A stretch of 64,000 bases of DNA, from NCBI RefSeq assembly GCF_009914755.1, contig NC_060930.1, one strand, 5' to 3'. Shown piece by piece: positions 14,084 through 39,671 of this stretch. Source of the DNA: the human T2T-CHM13v2.0 reference genome, Homo sapiens. Under the pieces are notes generated by a model. The model made no database searches and was not told the origin of the DNA. It was given only the letters and a program-made list of their open reading frames with translations. Position numbers and translations under genes: made by a program. Positions within the stretch are counted from its first letter, which is position 1. Every line of letters starts with the position of its first letter.

Positions 14084-14318
14084 CCCCCAATTCCAGATCC
14101 GAACAACATGAGAGACTTTGTCAGCTACCCATCAGCCGGCAACGAGCGGCTGCACTGCACCATGAAGCGCACAGAGGACGACCCGGAGGTGGGCGGCCCG
14201 TGCTACACGCTCTACCTGGAGTACCTGGGCGGGCTTGTGCCCATCCTCAAAGGGCGGCGCATCAGCAAGCTGCGGCCAGAGTTCGTCATCATGGACCCGC
14301 GGACAGATAGCAAACCAG
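14084..14318 (+). CDS. TULP4: TULP4 coding exon (probably exon 8)
   Basis: tcctccag|CCC acceptor, CCAG|gtgggc donor; 235 nt, phase 0-1. Encodes PPIPDPNNMRDFVSYPSAGNERLHCTMKR...EFVIMDPRTDSKP. Confidence 0.95.
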
Positions 14319-16349
14319 GTGGGCCCCTCACCCGAGGGACTGGGACCTTGTTCTCCTGTGGTCATGGGCTGTTAACGCCTTACACCCCATGCAAAGAGAA
14401 TGTCTGCTAATGAAACGTGAGCCTGTGGGGGCTAGTGTGGAACATCCTTGAAGCTACGACATTTCCAGAATCCCATTGAAATGAACAGTTCTCTAAATGT
14501 ACTTTTTGACAGGTTTTTAATCATATTCCATGGGCAGTGGATAGCTGGGCGGTGGATAGATGAACCAGGCAAGGGGAAGTTGGCGCAGTCCTCCTGGGAG
14601 TGAGGGTTTCCTCTTCACAGTTACCGAGTATTCATCGAGTGCCTTCATGTAATATTGAGACAACTTGAAAATAATAACAAGATACAGTCCCTACCCTCCC
14701 AGAGTGGATGATAAAATTGAAATCAAACCTTCAGCCTCCTACCCCTCCCTAGTCTACTGTTAACTGCTTTTTACCTGATTGCTAATGACAATGTTTTGCT
14801 CATCCATAAAGATGTTGGTATGAGTCACCCTTTTCTTCTAAAAACCTTTCCCTGCAGTGATTTTCATTGCTCAGTTAATGTATTCAAGATGCTCCCTGCA
14901 CATCTCTCTGGGATCCTAGATTGTAAGCTTCAGAGGGAAGGGACTTTGTTCTTTTTTTGTGCCACTTGGTACTAGGCTAGTGTCCGTGCACCCATCAGTC
15001 ACTGCCAGCTCAGTCTGCCACCTCCCTCTGAAACTTTGCCCATCACCTATGGCAGAACGAACAGCACGCTTAGTCATTGTGCTCCAGACGCTGCCCCGCT
15101 GAATCCTGTGGGCCTGGGGGGAGAGAACTGAGTCATCTTTGTGCCCTCAGTGGATTTGGATTTGTTTTCATTAGTTCATGCTTCCTCTCGCCACTTCCTC
15201 GCTCCAGTTTACTCTCCTGCCCATTAGTCTGGTCCCTGCCTCTCATTACGACCTGGAGCTAGCATGACCTGTGGCCTGACCAGTCACCCCAAGTCACAGT
15301 GTGGTGGGCTTGCTCACTCTCAACTTGTACTCAGCGCTGTACACAGGTGCCCCACCTCTGCCTGCCAGCCTTCATTTGTTCAGCATCGGCAGTGACACTC
15401 TACTACCCCTGCAAAACAGCAATACCACTTGTCAATATTAGATATTAGTCCGTTTTTTCTGTCTTTTGACTCGTGACAAGCTAGTACCAGGAACAAAGAA
15501 AGCAACTAGCAGAATTGGGGCTGGTAGGGAGGCAGACTGAAAGGAGGGAGAGGACAGATTCAGGAGGAAGGAAGGCACAGTGGGAAAAGCAGGAGAGAGA
15601 GAAGCGCATGTTCACGTGGGAGGGAAACATGGTTTCAGGGAAAAGGAGAAGGGCCACCAATGGTTAGAGATGACTGGGGTGGGGGCCGTGGGACAGGCCC
15701 TGAGCCCAGGTTTGCAGCAGATGTTCTCACTGATGTCAGTACCTCTAAGGTTACTCCCCTGGGTACAATTTTATAAAATCTGTATTGAGATTAAATGTTG
15801 GCGATAACTTAGGTGAAGAGCTTATTTCCTCATGTGTGCATAAATTCTTCACTGAAGAAGACGGACCGGAGGCTGTGCTGTGGAGTACCCAAGGACTGGG
15901 CTTGCTTGAATCTGACCCGACTACGCCAAATGCCTGCTCTTCCTTCCGGTTCATGTTTATCAGCTCGTATCAAACACAGACCCACTCATTTGCGCACAAT
16001 CCTTTCAGGGAATAAGATGTTGTATTTTTATAATTAAAAGAATTAAAAGCTATAAAACAAAGCACATTGACAGATATTTAGTCAGTGCCTACCTTGTGTG
16101 GGGTACTTGAGTCTCCTGCTATTATTAAGTAATACCAGGTCATCTCTGCTTTTAAGGAGTTTCTAAACCCTTTTGGGTGATAAGACAATGTAAGCACTTG
16201 AAAAGTTTAATTAAAAAGTCAAGATTTAAATACCTGATGACAAAAATAGAGGATATGTCACAAGGCACAATATAACTAATTGCACCTGAATGGCATATAT
16301 AAACTATTTCAGAGGTGGAAAAGAGTCCCTGACATTGAGAAAACAGGAA

Positions 16350-16640
16350 TTTCTTTTTTCTTTTTATTGGGGGGATGGAGGGACAGGGTCTTGCTCTGAT
16401 GCCCAGGCTGCAGTGCAGTGGTGCCATTACAGCTCACTACAGCCTTGACCTCCCAGGTTCAAGCGATCCTCCCACCTCAGCCTCCTGGGCAGCTGGGGCT
16501 ACAGGTGTGCACCACACTTGCTAATTTTTGTATTTTTTGTAGAGACAGGGTTTTACCATGTTGCCCAGGCTGATAAACTCCTGGGTTCCAGTAGTCCTCC
16601 GCCTTGGCCTCCCAAAGTGCTAGGAACCACCATGCCTGTC
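16350..16640 (-). mobile_element. AluJ
   Basis: Diverged Alu body. Confidence 0.85.
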
Positions 16641-16689
16641 CCCAAATTTCTTATCATTAAAAGCTGATTAACTCATTGAGGCCGCCATA

Positions 16690-16877
16690 TCATTGTTTCT
16701 CAAAATGTGTTCCATGCACCACCACCCCCATGCAAATCACCTGGGATGCTTATTTAAATACACGTTCCTAGGCTTACCCTTAGATTACGATTCATTAGGG
16801 CTGGGGTGGGGCCTACAAACATGCGACTTAATGGGTTTCCCAGGTGGTTTTTATGCACTAAAGTTTGTGATCCACTG
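16690..16877. mobile_element. MER5-like hAT-Charlie fossil
   Basis: cattgtttctcaaa...aagtttgtgatccactg termini. Confidence 0.6.
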
Positions 16878-16952
16878 TCAAGTGACTTGGCAGATATGTT
16901 CCTCAAAATCACCAGTGTGTATTTTTATACCAGATACCATGAGTCCCAGTAG

Positions 16953-17477
16953 TTTTTTTTTTTTTCAGACAGGGTCTCACGGTGTCTCCCAGGCTGGAGT
17001 GCAGTAGTACAATCATGGCTCATTGCAGCCTTGAACTCCTAGGCTCAAGCAACCCTCCCACTTCAGCCTCCAAGTAGCTAGGATCGCAGGTGTGCACCAC
17101 CACACCTGGCTAATTTTTTAATTTTTTTTTTATTTTTGTGGAGGTGGGGGCTCCATGTGTTGCCCAGGCTGGTCTCACCTCCTGGATTCAAGATCCTCCA
17201 GCACTGGCCTCCCATAGTGCTGGGATCATAGGTGTGAGCCACCATGCCCAGCTGCTTCCCTCCACCACCCCCACCCATTGTTTTTTAAAAGGAGGCAGGG
17301 TCTTACTCTGTCACCCAGACTGGAGTGCAGTGGTATGATCATAGTGCACTTTTTTTTTTTGTAGAGACAGGGTCTCACCGTGTTTCCCAGGCTGGTCTTA
17401 AACTTCTGATCTCAAGAAATCCTCCTGCCTCGGTCGCCAAAGTGCTGGGATTTACAGACATGCTATTGCACCTGGCC
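16953..17477 (-). mobile_element. AluJ plus internally deleted Alu fragments
   Basis: Alu body at 16953-17252 and a partial Alu at 17280-17477. Confidence 0.82.
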
Positions 17478-37768: not shown

Positions 37769-38308
37769 TGCAGTCATATTTGTAAAGAATACGTTTCTAC
37801 TTCTGTTCATTGACTTTTCTGTTTTTGGCATCAGATGGTGACTTCCTAAGGAATGTGAGGGTTAGTTTTGCTCACCCTATGCACACACACACATGTATGC
37901 ACACAGCTTTTCCTTCCCCATTAAATCAGTGGTCACTGGTTACCTTGTTATGCTAGTCAATAGCTGAGCCATGTATTACGGCTTAGTTACATTTCCTTTT
38001 TTGTATACTTTTCTTCCCCTAGACATATCAACTTCCTGTTATCTGTCTGTTTGCTCATTTGCCTATTTCTCTGTATATGGAAGTCATTCCCCAGTTCTCG
38101 AACCGGATGTTATCTCATGGTGCAGCTGAACACATTGGGTCCTAGTTCTTCCCTGCTCCAGCCCAGAAGGGTTGCTCTGTCCTGCTGCCAACGTCCCCCT
38201 TCACCATCCTGTAAAGTCCCTCCCCTCTCTACTTAAATTCACGTTTTCGTTAATTCACTCAATAAATGTTATTGAGAACCTGCCGTGTGCCTGGCAATCC
38301 TCTAAGCC

Positions 38309-38524
38309 CAGGGTTGGCATACTGGCCTTTGGGCCACTCTGGCCAGCCGCCTCTTTTTGGAACAAAGTTTTATTGGAGCACAGCCACGCTCATTCACCTG
38401 AGTATCGTCCCTGGCTGTGTTGGCCGGACAACAGCAGAGTTGAGGAGTTGTGGTAAAAACAGTGTGACCCACAAAGCTTAAAATATTTATTATCAGCCCC
38501 TCGCAGAAAGTGCGTCAGCCCCTG
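38309..38524. mobile_element. MER58A-like hAT fossil
   Basis: cagggttggca...aaagttttattggagcacagccacgctcattc...cagcccctg. Confidence 0.75.
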
Positions 38525-39197
38525 CTATAGTGCTAGGATCAGGGCAGTGAGGAAGACAGAGCCCCGCCGCTGTGGAACACGCAGACTGGGGACCAGAGGC
38601 GGATGAGTGCAGCCCGTGTGCTAGGGCATGGCGTCACTGTCTGATGGGATGTAGGCACAGGAACTGGTGAGGAAGTGGCCAGCAAGTCCCTCCCTGAGGC
38701 AGCGGTGTTGGACAGTGGTGGTGCTACTTCTCTTCTGGAGCCTCTGGCCTGTTTGTGTTTCTTTCTGCTTTTCTTTCTCCTTTCTACTTCCTAGGTGAAG
38801 AAACCACTTCATTTGGCCTGTAGCATTCACCCCATTCTTTTTTTTTTTTCTTTTTTCTTTTAGATTCAGGGGTACATGTGCTTGTTACATGAGCATTACG
38901 TGCATAATGGGGGGTGGGCTTCTAGTATGCCCATCACCCAAACATTGGATGTTGTACCCCACAGGTAACTTTTCACGGATGGAGCTGGAGGCCATTGTCC
39001 CCACATTCCAAACCTTGCTCACTGTCTCCATTGTGTTAACATGTTCCTCAGTCCCCTTATTTCCTGCAAACTTGGAGTTAGATATAGAAGCTTCACCAGA
39101 TTCAGGGTCACTTTTGTTAGCAAAAGTATCTCATAGACGGTGCTGTCTGCTTCCATAAGGAGCCATGCAGACCCGGCTGTCGCCTTGCTCGCCTTGT

Positions 39198-39507
39198 TCT
39201 TTTTTTTTTTTTTTTTTTTTTTTTTTTGAGATGAAGTCTCCTCTGTCGCCCAGGCTGGAGTGCAGTGGCCCAATCTCAGCTCACTGCAAGCTCCACCTCC
39301 CAGGTTTACACCATTCTCCTGCCTCAGCCTCCCGAGTAGCTGGGACTACAGGCGCCCGCCACCACGCCCGGCTAATTTTTTGTATTTTTAATAGAGACGG
39401 GGTTTCACCGTGTTAGCCAGGGTGGTCTCTATCTCCTGACGTCGTGATCTGCCCACCTCGGCCTCCCAAAGTGCTGGGACTACAGGCGTGAGCCACTGCG
39501 CCTGGCC
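39198..39507 (-). mobile_element. AluY-like element ~50 nt upstream of the last exon acceptor
   Basis: Poly-T tail; gcaagctcc and gtgttagccagg diagnostics. Confidence 0.9.
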
Positions 39508-39554
39508 TTTTCACCTTATTCTTTAATGTCTTTGCTTCCCCTGCCCTCCTCCAG

Positions 39555-39671
39555 GTGATGCAGTTTGGACGGATTGATGGCAGTGCGTACATTCTAGACT
39601 TCCAGTATCCGTTCTCAGCCGTGCAGGCCTTTGCAGTTGCCCTGGCCAACGTGACTCAGCGCCTCAAATGA
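39555..39671 (+). CDS. TULP4: TULP4 terminal exon, coding part (probably exon 14)
   Basis: ctcctccag|GTG acceptor. Encodes [38 protein letters not shown] then TGA (39669-39671); matches the tubby C-terminal QFGR and QAF-helix motifs. Confidence 0.96.

What the first reader, a model, noticed from the sequence alone, without database searches (positions are those of the whole stretch)
14084..39671. TULP4 appears to encode a complete but discontinuous tubby domain assembled from four distant segments
Seen: the spliced exons give four blocks. (1) DFVSYPSAGNERLHCTMKR..PCYTLYLEY..VPILKGRRISKLRPEFVIMDP (14084-14318). (2) YLAQVTSNIWGTKFKIVG (27730-27823). (3) LGAVIYKTSLLHLQPRQMTIYLP (end of exon 27730-27823 through 31646-31704). 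(4) [61 protein letters not shown] (37039-39671). Established (recalled Tubby sequence): these match, in order, [47 protein letters not shown] / YIGKLRSNLMGTKFTVYD / [24 protein letters not shown] / [61 protein letters not shown]. As I recall, TULP4 is usually annotated with only a short ~80-aa C-terminal tubby fragment. Inference: the full 12-strand barrel with central helix starts right after the SOCS box, and two disordered inserts (~100 aa from exons 9-10, ~800 aa from the end of exon 12 and exon 13) loop out of it. The C-terminus would then fold back next to the WD40-SOCS module.
Basis: partly seen in the sequence, partly recalled or inferred. Interest (0 to 1): 0.85.

Follow-up and report, generated by a model that had tools for sequence, protein, structure and literature searches.

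The report
TULP4's tubby barrel, split by loops
The human TULP4 gene appears to encode a whole tubby-type beta-barrel whose pieces are separated in the chain by two long floppy inserts, which corrects the usual picture of a short C-terminal tubby fragment but concerns a known gene of a known family.

Summary

Pfam sees only Tub profile positions 164-253 of 256 in the human-like protein. Profile-profile comparison aligns the post-SOCS region to TULP1 over 240 columns, template 6-267 of 268, E 1e-22. Each N-terminal block alone hits its expected, colinear place in a TUB/TULP1/TULP3 profile: B1 E 0.0013, B2 0.0016, B3 5.5e-5, each beaten by 0 of 60 shuffles. Insert 1 gives nothing.

AlphaFold2 models show 4+4+4 strands plus a C-terminal helix. 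The model of a propeller-poor insect orthologue has tubby crystal structures as its best matches. Those alignments span both inserts, with TM 0.61-0.63 per target length.

There are three chain segments, not four, and both inserts occur in all 50 aligned animal orthologues. New here: the PI(4,5)P2-binding Lys/Arg pair is Gln598/Thr600 in TULP4.

A preprint already mentions an AlphaFold TULP4 model with a TUBBY domain touching the propeller. Interest is moderate.

The parts
12871..12975 (+). SOCS box (residues about 374-408), immediately upstream of the tubby domain
   Evidence: Pfam PF07525 on the translation of exon 12778-13002: E 7.8e-8, 32.9 bits against a cut-off of 23.5, residues 32-66 of the exon. 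Helices 377-388, 392-397 and 402-410 in the model.
14114..14302 (+). Block B1, residues 428-490: N-terminal helix and first four strands of the tubby barrel
   Evidence: hhalign of this segment against TUB/TULP1/TULP3: E 0.0013, 0 of 60 shuffles, template columns 12-88. Model: H423-431, E440-447, E457-464, E467-476, E483-487, pLDDT 71-82. Identity to invertebrate orthologues is 30-68%. No Pfam hit on its own.
14303..26694 (+). Insert 1, residues 491-592 (102 aa), coded by 14303-14318, 22617-22761 and 26550-26694. An acidic Ser-rich stretch followed by SP(K/R)-type repeats, looping out between strands 4 and 5.
   Evidence: pLDDT below 50 over 492-552 and 554-591. No similarity to tubby: E 0.59, 22 of 60 shuffles. 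Length is 102 in 19 of 19 vertebrate rows that passed the filter and 51-71 in 26 invertebrate rows. Identity to invertebrates is 6-16%, but 77-91% within vertebrates.
27730..27823 (+). Block B2 and the start of B3, residues 593-624: strands 5-6, the place of the canonical PI(4,5)P2-binding Lys/Arg pair, here Gln598/Thr600
   Evidence: hhalign E 0.0016, 0 of 60 shuffles, template columns 85-115. HMMER alignment to the mouse tubby crystal sequence pairs LaqvtSN with IGKLRSN. Column counts: Q36 E9 R1 H1 and T32 S14 V1, out of 47.
31646..31710 (+). Rest of block B3, residues 624-645: strands 7-8
   Evidence: hhalign B3 E 5.5e-5, 0 of 60 shuffles, template columns 131-162. hmmsearch against TULP1: i-Evalue 8.7e-7 for a single-sequence search. 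Model: E620-628, E635-643, pLDDT 77-84.
31711..37026 (+). Insert 2, residues 646-1462 (817 aa), coded by 31711-31789 and 34655-37026. A Pro/Ser/Thr/Gly/Gln-rich predicted-disordered loop.
   Evidence: The equivalent region of the P0020 model has pLDDT below 50 over 649-1030 apart from a few single residues and 833-838. 44% P+S+T+G+Q. Length is 107-369 in invertebrates and 386-870 in the vertebrate entries retrieved. Identity to invertebrates is 3-10%.
37027..39671 (+). Block B4, residues 1463-1543, coded by 37027-37155 and 39555-39668 plus the stop codon: last four strands and the C-terminal (central) helix. This is the only part that Pfam annotates.
   Evidence: Pfam Tub PF01167: exon 13 end E 2.5e-11 (profile 164-209) and exon 14 E 1.3e-10 (profile 222-253). 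Whole-genome scan hits only these two TULP4 exons. Model: E1033-1038, E1067-1070, E1073-1081, E1085-1090, H1096-1111.

Best explanation
TULP4 carries one complete tubby-type domain, a closed beta-barrel wrapped around its own C-terminal helix. The domain starts about 15-20 residues after the SOCS box and is built from three stretches of the chain: residues 428-490, 593-645 and 1463-1543. Two loops of the canonical domain have been expanded into long, predicted-disordered inserts. These are the short loop after strand 4 and the roughly 30-residue connection after strand 8. The inserts are 102 and 817 residues in human and loop out of the barrel. Because the last third must return to close the barrel, the C-terminus sits beside the propeller-SOCS module. 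The split is ancestral to bilaterian TULP4/Tusp/tub-2 proteins, and vertebrates enlarged both inserts. The barrel has lost the Lys/Arg pair that TULP3 needs to bind PI(4,5)P2. I infer, but have not shown, that it serves as a protein- or other ligand-recognition module of a SOCS-box (Elongin B/C-Cullin 5 type) ubiquitin ligase receptor, not as a canonical phosphoinositide anchor. Shown here: sequence homology of every block, conservation pattern, predicted fold. Inferred: actual folding in cis, disorder of the inserts, function.
For: Blocks present at the stated places. hhalign of the post-SOCS family profile against TULP1: probability 99.5, E 1.1e-22, 240 aligned columns, template 6-267 of 268. 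Block-wise against TUB/TULP1/TULP3: B1 E 0.0013, B2 0.0016, B3 5.5e-5, each with 0 of 60 shuffles, all colinear; insert 1 is null. AF2 model of P0020 (puma TULP4, blocks 99-100% identical to human): 4+4+4 strands plus a terminal helix, pLDDT 65-84 per 10-residue bin in B1-B3, inserts mostly below 50. AF2 model of P0142: pLDDT 78-94 (10-residue bins) in B1 and mostly 88-94 in B2-B3, with the same pattern of strands and helices. Its top Foldseek PDB hits are 1s31, 1c8z, 2fim, 3c5n and 1i7e, with 555-572 alignment columns and TM per target 0.61-0.63. Block lengths are constant (57-64, 53-54, 81) in the 45 of 50 orthologue rows that passed the filter, while insert lengths vary 51-102 and 107-870. 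B1 and B2B3 are as well conserved from mammals to insects, molluscs and nematodes (30-68%, 47-68%) as the propeller (29-55%); the inserts are at 3-16%. In aphid and nematode orthologues with shorter inserts, Pfam's own Tub match already reaches back to profile position 116.
Against: No experimental structure. Both models have modest overall confidence (mean pLDDT 57.9 and 63.4, pTM 0.54 and 0.52). The most conserved stretch of B4 (1042-1063 in P0020, 667-680 in P0142) has pLDDT below 50. AlphaFold was trained on tubby structures and the alignments were shallow (50 and 72 rows). The fold search on the human-like model returned only WD40 hits, so the structural match rests on the insect orthologue. 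Its Foldseek rmsd values are high (10-15 A) because the alignments run through the inserts. B1 and B2 alone are only marginal against a single TULP1 sequence: E 0.046 and 0.069, with 5 and 6 of 100 shuffles reaching them. They get no Pfam hit. The canonical profile had only three human paralogues. No PAE or coordinates were available, so contacts between blocks were not seen directly.
Confidence: 0.85

Rival explanations
1. Only the C-terminal ~80-100 residues are tubby-derived, a relic fragment. Residues 428-645 form a separate beta domain that packs on the propeller, and their likeness to the tubby N-terminal strands is chance or convergence.
For: Pfam gives no hit for the B1, B2 or B3 exons alone. 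The whole-genome Tub scan finds only the last two coding exons of TULP4. B1 and B2 are marginal against single TULP1.
Against: All three blocks are colinear and significant against a three-paralogue profile. Full-length hhalign covers template 6-267 of 268. Foldseek TM per target of 0.61-0.63 with alignments spanning both inserts cannot come from 81 residues of a 223-273-residue target.
Confidence: 0.06
2. The pieces are homologous to a full tubby domain, but the barrel is not closed within one chain. The N-terminal two thirds and the C-terminal third pair between molecules (a swapped dimer), or only conditionally, with the 817-residue insert acting as a regulated tether.
For: The very long insert 2 and the existence of a RefSeq isoform (NM_001007466.3) that keeps B1-B3 but loses B4 by frameshift leave room for assembly in trans. 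No contact data were available here.
Against: AF2 monomer models give confident strands for all blocks. Invertebrate orthologues have insert 2 as short as 107 residues, and the architecture is conserved as one chain.
Confidence: 0.05
3. The predicted barrel is a modelling artefact: AlphaFold recalls the tubby fold from the strongly conserved C-terminal motif and forces the upstream strands into it.
For: Shallow alignments, moderate pLDDT, and low confidence in part of B4.
Against: Independent sequence-only evidence places B1, B2 and B3 at the right template positions. Block lengths are invariant across phyla while inserts vary.
Confidence: 0.03

Closest known systems
Canonical tubby C-terminal domain of TUB, TULP1, TULP2, TULP3 (Pfam PF01167; structures 1C8Z, 1I7E, 1S31, 2FIM, 3C5N)
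   Same: Same order of all blocks. Profile alignment over template 6-267 of 268. Predicted 12 strands plus a C-terminal helix. These crystal structures are the best structural matches, with TM 0.61-0.63 per target. B4 aligns closely with the tubby crystal sequences.
   Different: The domain is interrupted by inserts of 102 and 817 residues, where TUB has roughly 9 and 31 residues (my count on the TUB sequence printed). The PI(4,5)P2-binding pair (TULP3 K268/R270) is Gln/Thr. It sits after a propeller and a SOCS box instead of after an IFT-A-binding helix, which a review says TULP4 lacks. Pfam detects only profile 164-253.
Invertebrate TULP4 orthologues (Drosophila-type Tusp, nematode tub-2)
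   Same: Same propeller, B1, insert, B2B3, insert, B4 order. Blocks are 30-85% identical to human.
   Different: Shorter inserts (51-71 and 107-369 residues). The SOCS box is weak or undetected by BLAST or Pfam in many.
Plant tubby-like F-box proteins (TLPs)
   Same: A tubby domain joined to a cullin-ligase adaptor box, which suggests a substrate-receptor role. This rests on the abstract of PMC11114105 seen in the listing.
   Different: F-box/SCF rather than SOCS box. No propeller. The tubby domain is contiguous as far as I recall (not tested here).
WDR35/IFT121 N-terminal beta-propeller (Pfam PF24797)
   Same: The TULP4 N-terminus matches it at E 2.5e-55 and matches PDB WDR35 chains at 3.9e-55. 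This is the neighbour of the tubby domain in the chain.
   Different: It lies mostly upstream of this window and is not part of the tubby domain. WDR35 has no SOCS box or tubby domain.

Membership tests
Tubby domain (Pfam Tub, PF01167) | Match to the family profile above the curated cut-off | tested here: met
   Exon 13 end 44.2 bits and exon 14 41.9 bits against a cut-off of 27. P0020 whole protein 112.3 bits, E 4.2e-32. The best stretch covers only profile positions 164-253 of 256.
Tubby domain (Pfam Tub, PF01167) | Homology over the whole domain length, N-terminal two thirds included, in the same order | tested here: met
   hhalign against TULP1: 240 columns, template 6-267 of 268, E 1.1e-22. 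B1, B2 and B3 separately: E 0.0013, 0.0016 and 5.5e-5, each with 0 of 60 shuffles, colinear. Against a single sequence, B1 and B2 were only marginal.
Tubby domain (Pfam Tub, PF01167) | Closed 12-stranded beta-barrel around a central C-terminal helix (fold as recalled from the tubby crystal structure papers) | tested here: met
   At the level of prediction only. DSSP on both AF2 models gives 4+4+4 strands plus a terminal helix. Foldseek top hits are tubby structures with TM per target 0.61-0.63. Barrel closure and the position of the helix could not be inspected, because no coordinates are returned.
Tubby domain (Pfam Tub, PF01167) | Lys/Arg pair needed for PI(4,5)P2 binding (TULP3 K268/R270) | tested here: not met
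   The requirement is stated in 10.1101/2021.05.25.445488 (passages). K268/R270 map to GKLRSN by counting from the C-terminus, assuming the recalled length of 442 residues. TULP4 has Q598 and T600. Across the family the columns read Q36 E9 R1 H1 and T32 S14 V1, out of 47. This bears on lipid binding, not on fold membership.
SOCS-box substrate receptors of Cullin-RING ligases | SOCS box motif | tested here: met
   PF07525, E 7.8e-8, 32.9 bits against a cut-off of 23.5, in exon 12778-13002.
SOCS-box substrate receptors of Cullin-RING ligases | Binding to Elongin B/C and Cullin 5; ubiquitination of a substrate | not testable with these tools
   The title and abstract of PMC11605339 claim that TULP4 degrades RYBP. 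Its text holds no domain information.
IFT-A-binding tubby proteins (TULP3, TUB, TULP2) | N-terminal alpha-helix that binds the IFT-A core | not tested
   Review PMC11346432 (passage) states the helix is absent from TULP1 and TULP4. The TULP4 N-terminus lies outside this window.

The most novel reading that the evidence does not exclude
The TULP4 barrel is a lipid-blind tubby domain used as the substrate-recognition head of a Cullin-5 type ligase. Its assembly would be controlled in two ways. First, by the conserved, phosphorylatable SP(K/R) repeats of insert 1 and the 817-residue insert 2, which tether the last third of the barrel. Second, by alternative splicing: the exon-13-skipping isoform keeps two thirds of a barrel that cannot close, and may act as a dominant-negative or be completed in trans.
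Probability: 0.12. Interest if true: 0.6.

Novelty: new variant of a known kind. Interest (0 to 1): 0.38.

Why it matters
It corrects the working picture of a human gene that has been linked in the literature to orofacial clefts and to protein degradation (listings and passages).

- Residues 428-490 and 593-645 would be folded core rather than linker. That changes how missense variants there should be read and how expression constructs should be cut.
- The RefSeq short isoform (NM_001007466.3) would carry an unclosable two-thirds barrel.
- The general statement that tubby-like proteins share a phosphoinositide-binding C-terminal domain (abstract of PMC7948452) may not hold for TULP4. It lacks the Lys/Arg pair.
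- It is a clear case where sequence profiles under-annotate a domain because long disordered inserts break the match.

It is not a new kind of system. The family, the gene and, implicitly, an AlphaFold view of its TUBBY domain are already in print.

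Tried and rejected
Pfam on single exons found nothing for B1, B2 or B3. This is uninformative, because the pieces are short and divergent.

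hmmsearch of the family profile against TULP1 reported only B3 and B4 as domains.

The fold search with the full-length-like P0020 model was swamped by WD40 propellers, and no tubby hit appeared among the rows shown. I therefore modelled P0142, a natural entry with little propeller.

Intron positions were compared between TULP1 and TULP4. Junctions lie near each other (AAVIY|ETN against NLGA|VIYK; HADD|PDY against EGRQ|VMQ) but differ in place and phase. They give no evidence either way.

The TULP2 tubby exons could not be spliced cleanly by my script. TULP2 was dropped, so the canonical profile holds 3 of the 4 human paralogues.

Canonical tubby proteins could not be retrieved with the search for homologous proteins. 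Both searches returned TULP4-type proteins only, and the third search was not used.

Literature searches found no text that calls the TULP4 tubby domain discontinuous or maps its segments. One search was badly designed and returned irrelevant papers.

Some sources were not seen. The review by Mukhopadhyay and Jackson 2011, the Ronshaugen 2002 Drosophila TULP/TUSP paper and the original TUSP cloning paper are not held; what I say of them is recalled or taken from citations. Supplements are closed, so Figure S6F of 10.1101/2022.08.09.503213, which may show exactly this barrel, was not seen. InterPro, UniProt, AlphaFold DB and TED entries could not be consulted and may already record a discontinuous domain.

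Rows dropped before counts:
- Searches left out alignment rows covering less than half of a segment. Rows used were 50, 47, 49, 47 (B2B3, only) and 41, out of 50.
- One search counted 19 of 21 vertebrate and 26 of 29 invertebrate rows. It dropped P0110, P0120, P0155, P0161 and P0173 for truncated blocks.
- The vertebrate entries are biased to 1457 residues or fewer by the length window, so their insert-2 lengths understate the full-length proteins.

Full report
**What is in the window.** The window holds exons 7-14 of the 14-exon TULP4 select transcript NM_020245.5. Splicing the annotated coding parts in a script gives residues 343-1543.

- B1 is residues 428-490, in exon 14084-14318.
- B2 and B3 together are residues 593-645, across exons 27730-27823 and 31646-31789.
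- B4 is residues 1463-1543, at the end of exon 34655-37155 and in 39555-39671.

B2 and B3 are contiguous in the protein. The domain would therefore be made of three chain segments with two inserts, of 102 and 817 residues.

I spliced the tubby domains of human TULP1, TUB and TULP3 from the same reference genome, and the TUB peptide contains the quoted strings.

**What standard annotation sees.**
- Pfam run exon by exon finds a SOCS box in 12778-13002 (E 7.8e-8). It finds Tub (PF01167) only at the end of exon 13 (profile 164-209) and in exon 14 (profile 222-253). It finds nothing for the B1, B2 or B3 exons.
- A six-frame scan of the whole genome with the Tub profile finds the exons of TUB, TULP1, TULP2, TULP3 and the pseudogene TULP3P1. 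In TULP4 it finds only those same two exons.
- On a near-human full protein (P0020, puma, 1112 residues, blocks 99-100% identical to human), the best Tub stretch is 1001-1106 against profile 164-253 of 256.

In aphid and nematode orthologues with shorter inserts, the Pfam stretch already reaches back to profile position 116-117.

**Sequence evidence for the N-terminal blocks.** I built A1, an alignment of 50 TULP4 orthologues from vertebrates, amphioxus, insects, molluscs and nematodes.
- hhalign of its post-SOCS part against the 268 C-terminal residues of TULP1 gives probability 99.5 and E 1.1e-22. It aligns 240 columns, covering template 6-267. That score is dominated by B4, so I tested the blocks one at a time.
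- Against TULP1 alone, B3 is clear (E 6.9e-6, 0 of 100 shuffles). B1 is marginal (E 0.046, 5 of 100) and so is B2 (E 0.069, 6 of 100). Insert 1 is null (E 0.7, 54 of 100).

Against a three-paralogue alignment (TUB, TULP1, TULP3), with 60 column-shuffled controls:

| Segment | E-value | Shuffles reaching it | z | Template columns |
|---|---|---|---|---|
| B1 | 0.0013 | 0 of 60 | 5.6 | 12-88 |
| B2 | 0.0016 | 0 of 60 | 6.4 | 85-115 |
| B3 | 5.5e-5 | 0 of 60 | 7.8 | 131-162 |
| Insert 1 | 0.59 | 22 of 60 | 0.1 | (none) |

Each block lands exactly where colinearity demands. A HMMER profile of propeller-poor entries against PDB sequences puts the tubby crystal chains on top (about 1e-27). It adds a weak second stretch that aligns B2+B3 to mouse tubby 85-150.

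**Conservation pattern.** Compared with P0020, insect, mollusc and nematode orthologues keep:
- B1 at 30-68% identity;
- B2B3 at 47-68%;
- B4 at 72-84%;
- the propeller at 29-55%;
- the SOCS region at 17-41%;
- insert 1 at 6-16% and insert 2 at 3-10%.

Block lengths are nearly fixed: 57-64, 53-54 and 81 residues in the rows that passed the filter. Insert 1 is 51-71 residues in 26 invertebrate rows and exactly 102 in 19 vertebrate rows. Insert 2 is 107-369 in invertebrates and 386-870 in the vertebrate entries retrieved. Human insert 2 is 817.

This is the signature of a folded core with loop-out inserts. It also shows the split is old, at least bilaterian, and not a vertebrate novelty. Within vertebrates the inserts are themselves well conserved (77-91% and 63-80%), so they are unlikely to be mere spacers.

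**Predicted structure.** The AlphaFold2 model of P0020 (50-row alignment; mean pLDDT 57.9, pTM 0.54) shows these elements:
- After the SOCS helices: H423-431 and strands 440-447, 457-464, 467-476, 483-487.
- Disorder from 492 to 591.
- Strands 595-601, 607-612, 620-628, 635-643.
- Predicted disorder from 649 to 1030, apart from a few residues.
- A helix at 1008-1023, strands 1033-1038, 1067-1070, 1073-1081, 1085-1090, and a final helix at 1096-1111.

That is 4+4+4 strands plus a terminal helix. pLDDT is 65-84 (10-residue bins) in B1-B3.

A Foldseek search with this model returned only propeller hits. I therefore modelled P0142, a psyllid entry of 731 residues with only about 129 residues of propeller and inserts of 67 and 279 residues. 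I used a 72-row alignment. The model has mean pLDDT 63.4, with bins of 78-94 in B1 and mostly 88-94 in B2-B3. Once the numbering offset is allowed for, the strands and helices fall at the same places as in P0020.

Its best PDB matches are human TUB 1s31, mouse tubby 1c8z and 1i7e, and TULP1 2fim and 3c5n (E 2e-8 to 1e-5). The alignments are 555-572 columns long, so they run from B1 through both inserts to the C-terminus. TM-scores are 0.61-0.63 when normalised to targets of 223-273 residues. Eighty-one C-terminal residues could not give such a value, so the N-terminal blocks take part in the superposition.

Weak points:
- The rmsd values are high (10-15 A).
- Part of B4 (667-680 in P0142, 1042-1063 in P0020) has low confidence.
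- The alignments are shallow.
- Neither PAE nor coordinates are returned, so I could not see the contacts directly.

TULP3 needs K268 and R270 for PI(4,5)P2 binding (passages of 10.1101/2021.05.25.445488). Counting from the C-terminus of the spliced TULP3, taken as 442 residues long (recalled), places these in the motif GKLRSN. That motif aligns with B2.

TULP4 has Gln598 and Thr600 there. Across 47 orthologue rows the two columns read Q36 E9 R1 H1 and T32 S14 V1. The canonical lipid-binding pair is therefore absent from the whole TULP4 family. I infer, without a test, that this barrel does not bind PI(4,5)P2 in the canonical way.

**Other consequences.** The RefSeq isoform NM_001007466.3 skips exon 34655-37155. 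It then shifts frame and stops 23 bases into the last exon. It keeps the propeller, SOCS box and B1-B3 but lacks B4, leaving a barrel that cannot close.

**How it most likely works.**
- Shown: homology of all blocks to a full tubby domain, the conservation pattern, and the predicted barrel.
- Inferred: the chain leaves the barrel twice at canonical loops, makes two disordered excursions, and returns. This brings the C-terminus back beside the propeller-SOCS module.
- Inferred: with its SOCS box and IFT121-like propeller, TULP4 looks like a substrate receptor of an Elongin B/C-Cullin 5 type ligase. One paper's title and abstract claim that it degrades RYBP. The barrel would then be a recognition module rather than a phosphoinositide anchor.

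[quoted passage not shown] An AlphaFold view of a folded TUBBY domain next to the propeller is therefore in print. I could not see the figure because supplements are closed.

None of my searches found a text that describes the domain as discontinuous, maps the segments, or notes the loss of the Lys/Arg pair. Several key older papers are not held. Structure-based domain databases could not be consulted and may already record it.

**Verdict.** I rate it a new variant of a known kind: a tubby domain with two large disordered inserts and without the canonical lipid-binding pair. It is partly anticipated by public AlphaFold models, useful for annotation and for reading variants, and of moderate interest.

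Noticed in passing
window 22617-22761 and 26550-26694 (residues about 528-582, insert 1): Insert 1 has an acidic Ser-rich stretch (CNCSDSSDIELSDDW) followed by a run of (K/R)SP(K/R)(L/I)(P/S)R-like repeats. A strict pattern matches at residues 530, 539 and 552, with looser copies after them. The stretch is conserved from shark to mammals at a fixed insert length of 102. Insects and a mollusc show one similar SP(K/R) motif. It could be a set of proline-directed phosphorylation sites or a docking motif.
   Followed up: partly
window 31646-31789 joined to 39555-39577 (RefSeq NM_001007466.3): The annotated short isoform skips the 2.5-kb exon, shifts frame and ends after ...[14 protein letters not shown]. 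It keeps B1-B3 but lacks the last third of the barrel and the central helix.
   Followed up: partly
L004/L014 = G000:C13:96150308-96153796: The whole-genome Tub scan hit an intronless stretch on chr13 covering profile 3-172 with 8 stop codons. It is the annotated pseudogene TULP3P1, inside the lncRNA LINC00359.
   Followed up: yes
P0020 residues 1042-1063; P0142 residues 667-680 (human about 1473-1494, window about 37057-37122): The most invariant stretch of the whole family (PLWNE..QVYQLDFGGRVTQES) is the one part of B4 that both AlphaFold2 models leave at pLDDT below 50 and without strands. In canonical tubby proteins the homologous stretch aligns closely. I have no explanation.
   Followed up: no
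upstream of the window (residues about 40-370) and window 12778-13002: The TULP4 N-terminal propeller matches WDR35/IFT121 far better than any other WD40 protein: Pfam PF24797 at E 2.5e-55, PDB WDR35 chains at 3.9e-55. The next WD40 hit is at 7e-10.
   Followed up: partly
window 48586-49210, minus strand: The annotated processed pseudogene CACYBPP3 lies about 3.8 kb downstream of the TULP4 3' end. I did not examine it.
   Followed up: no
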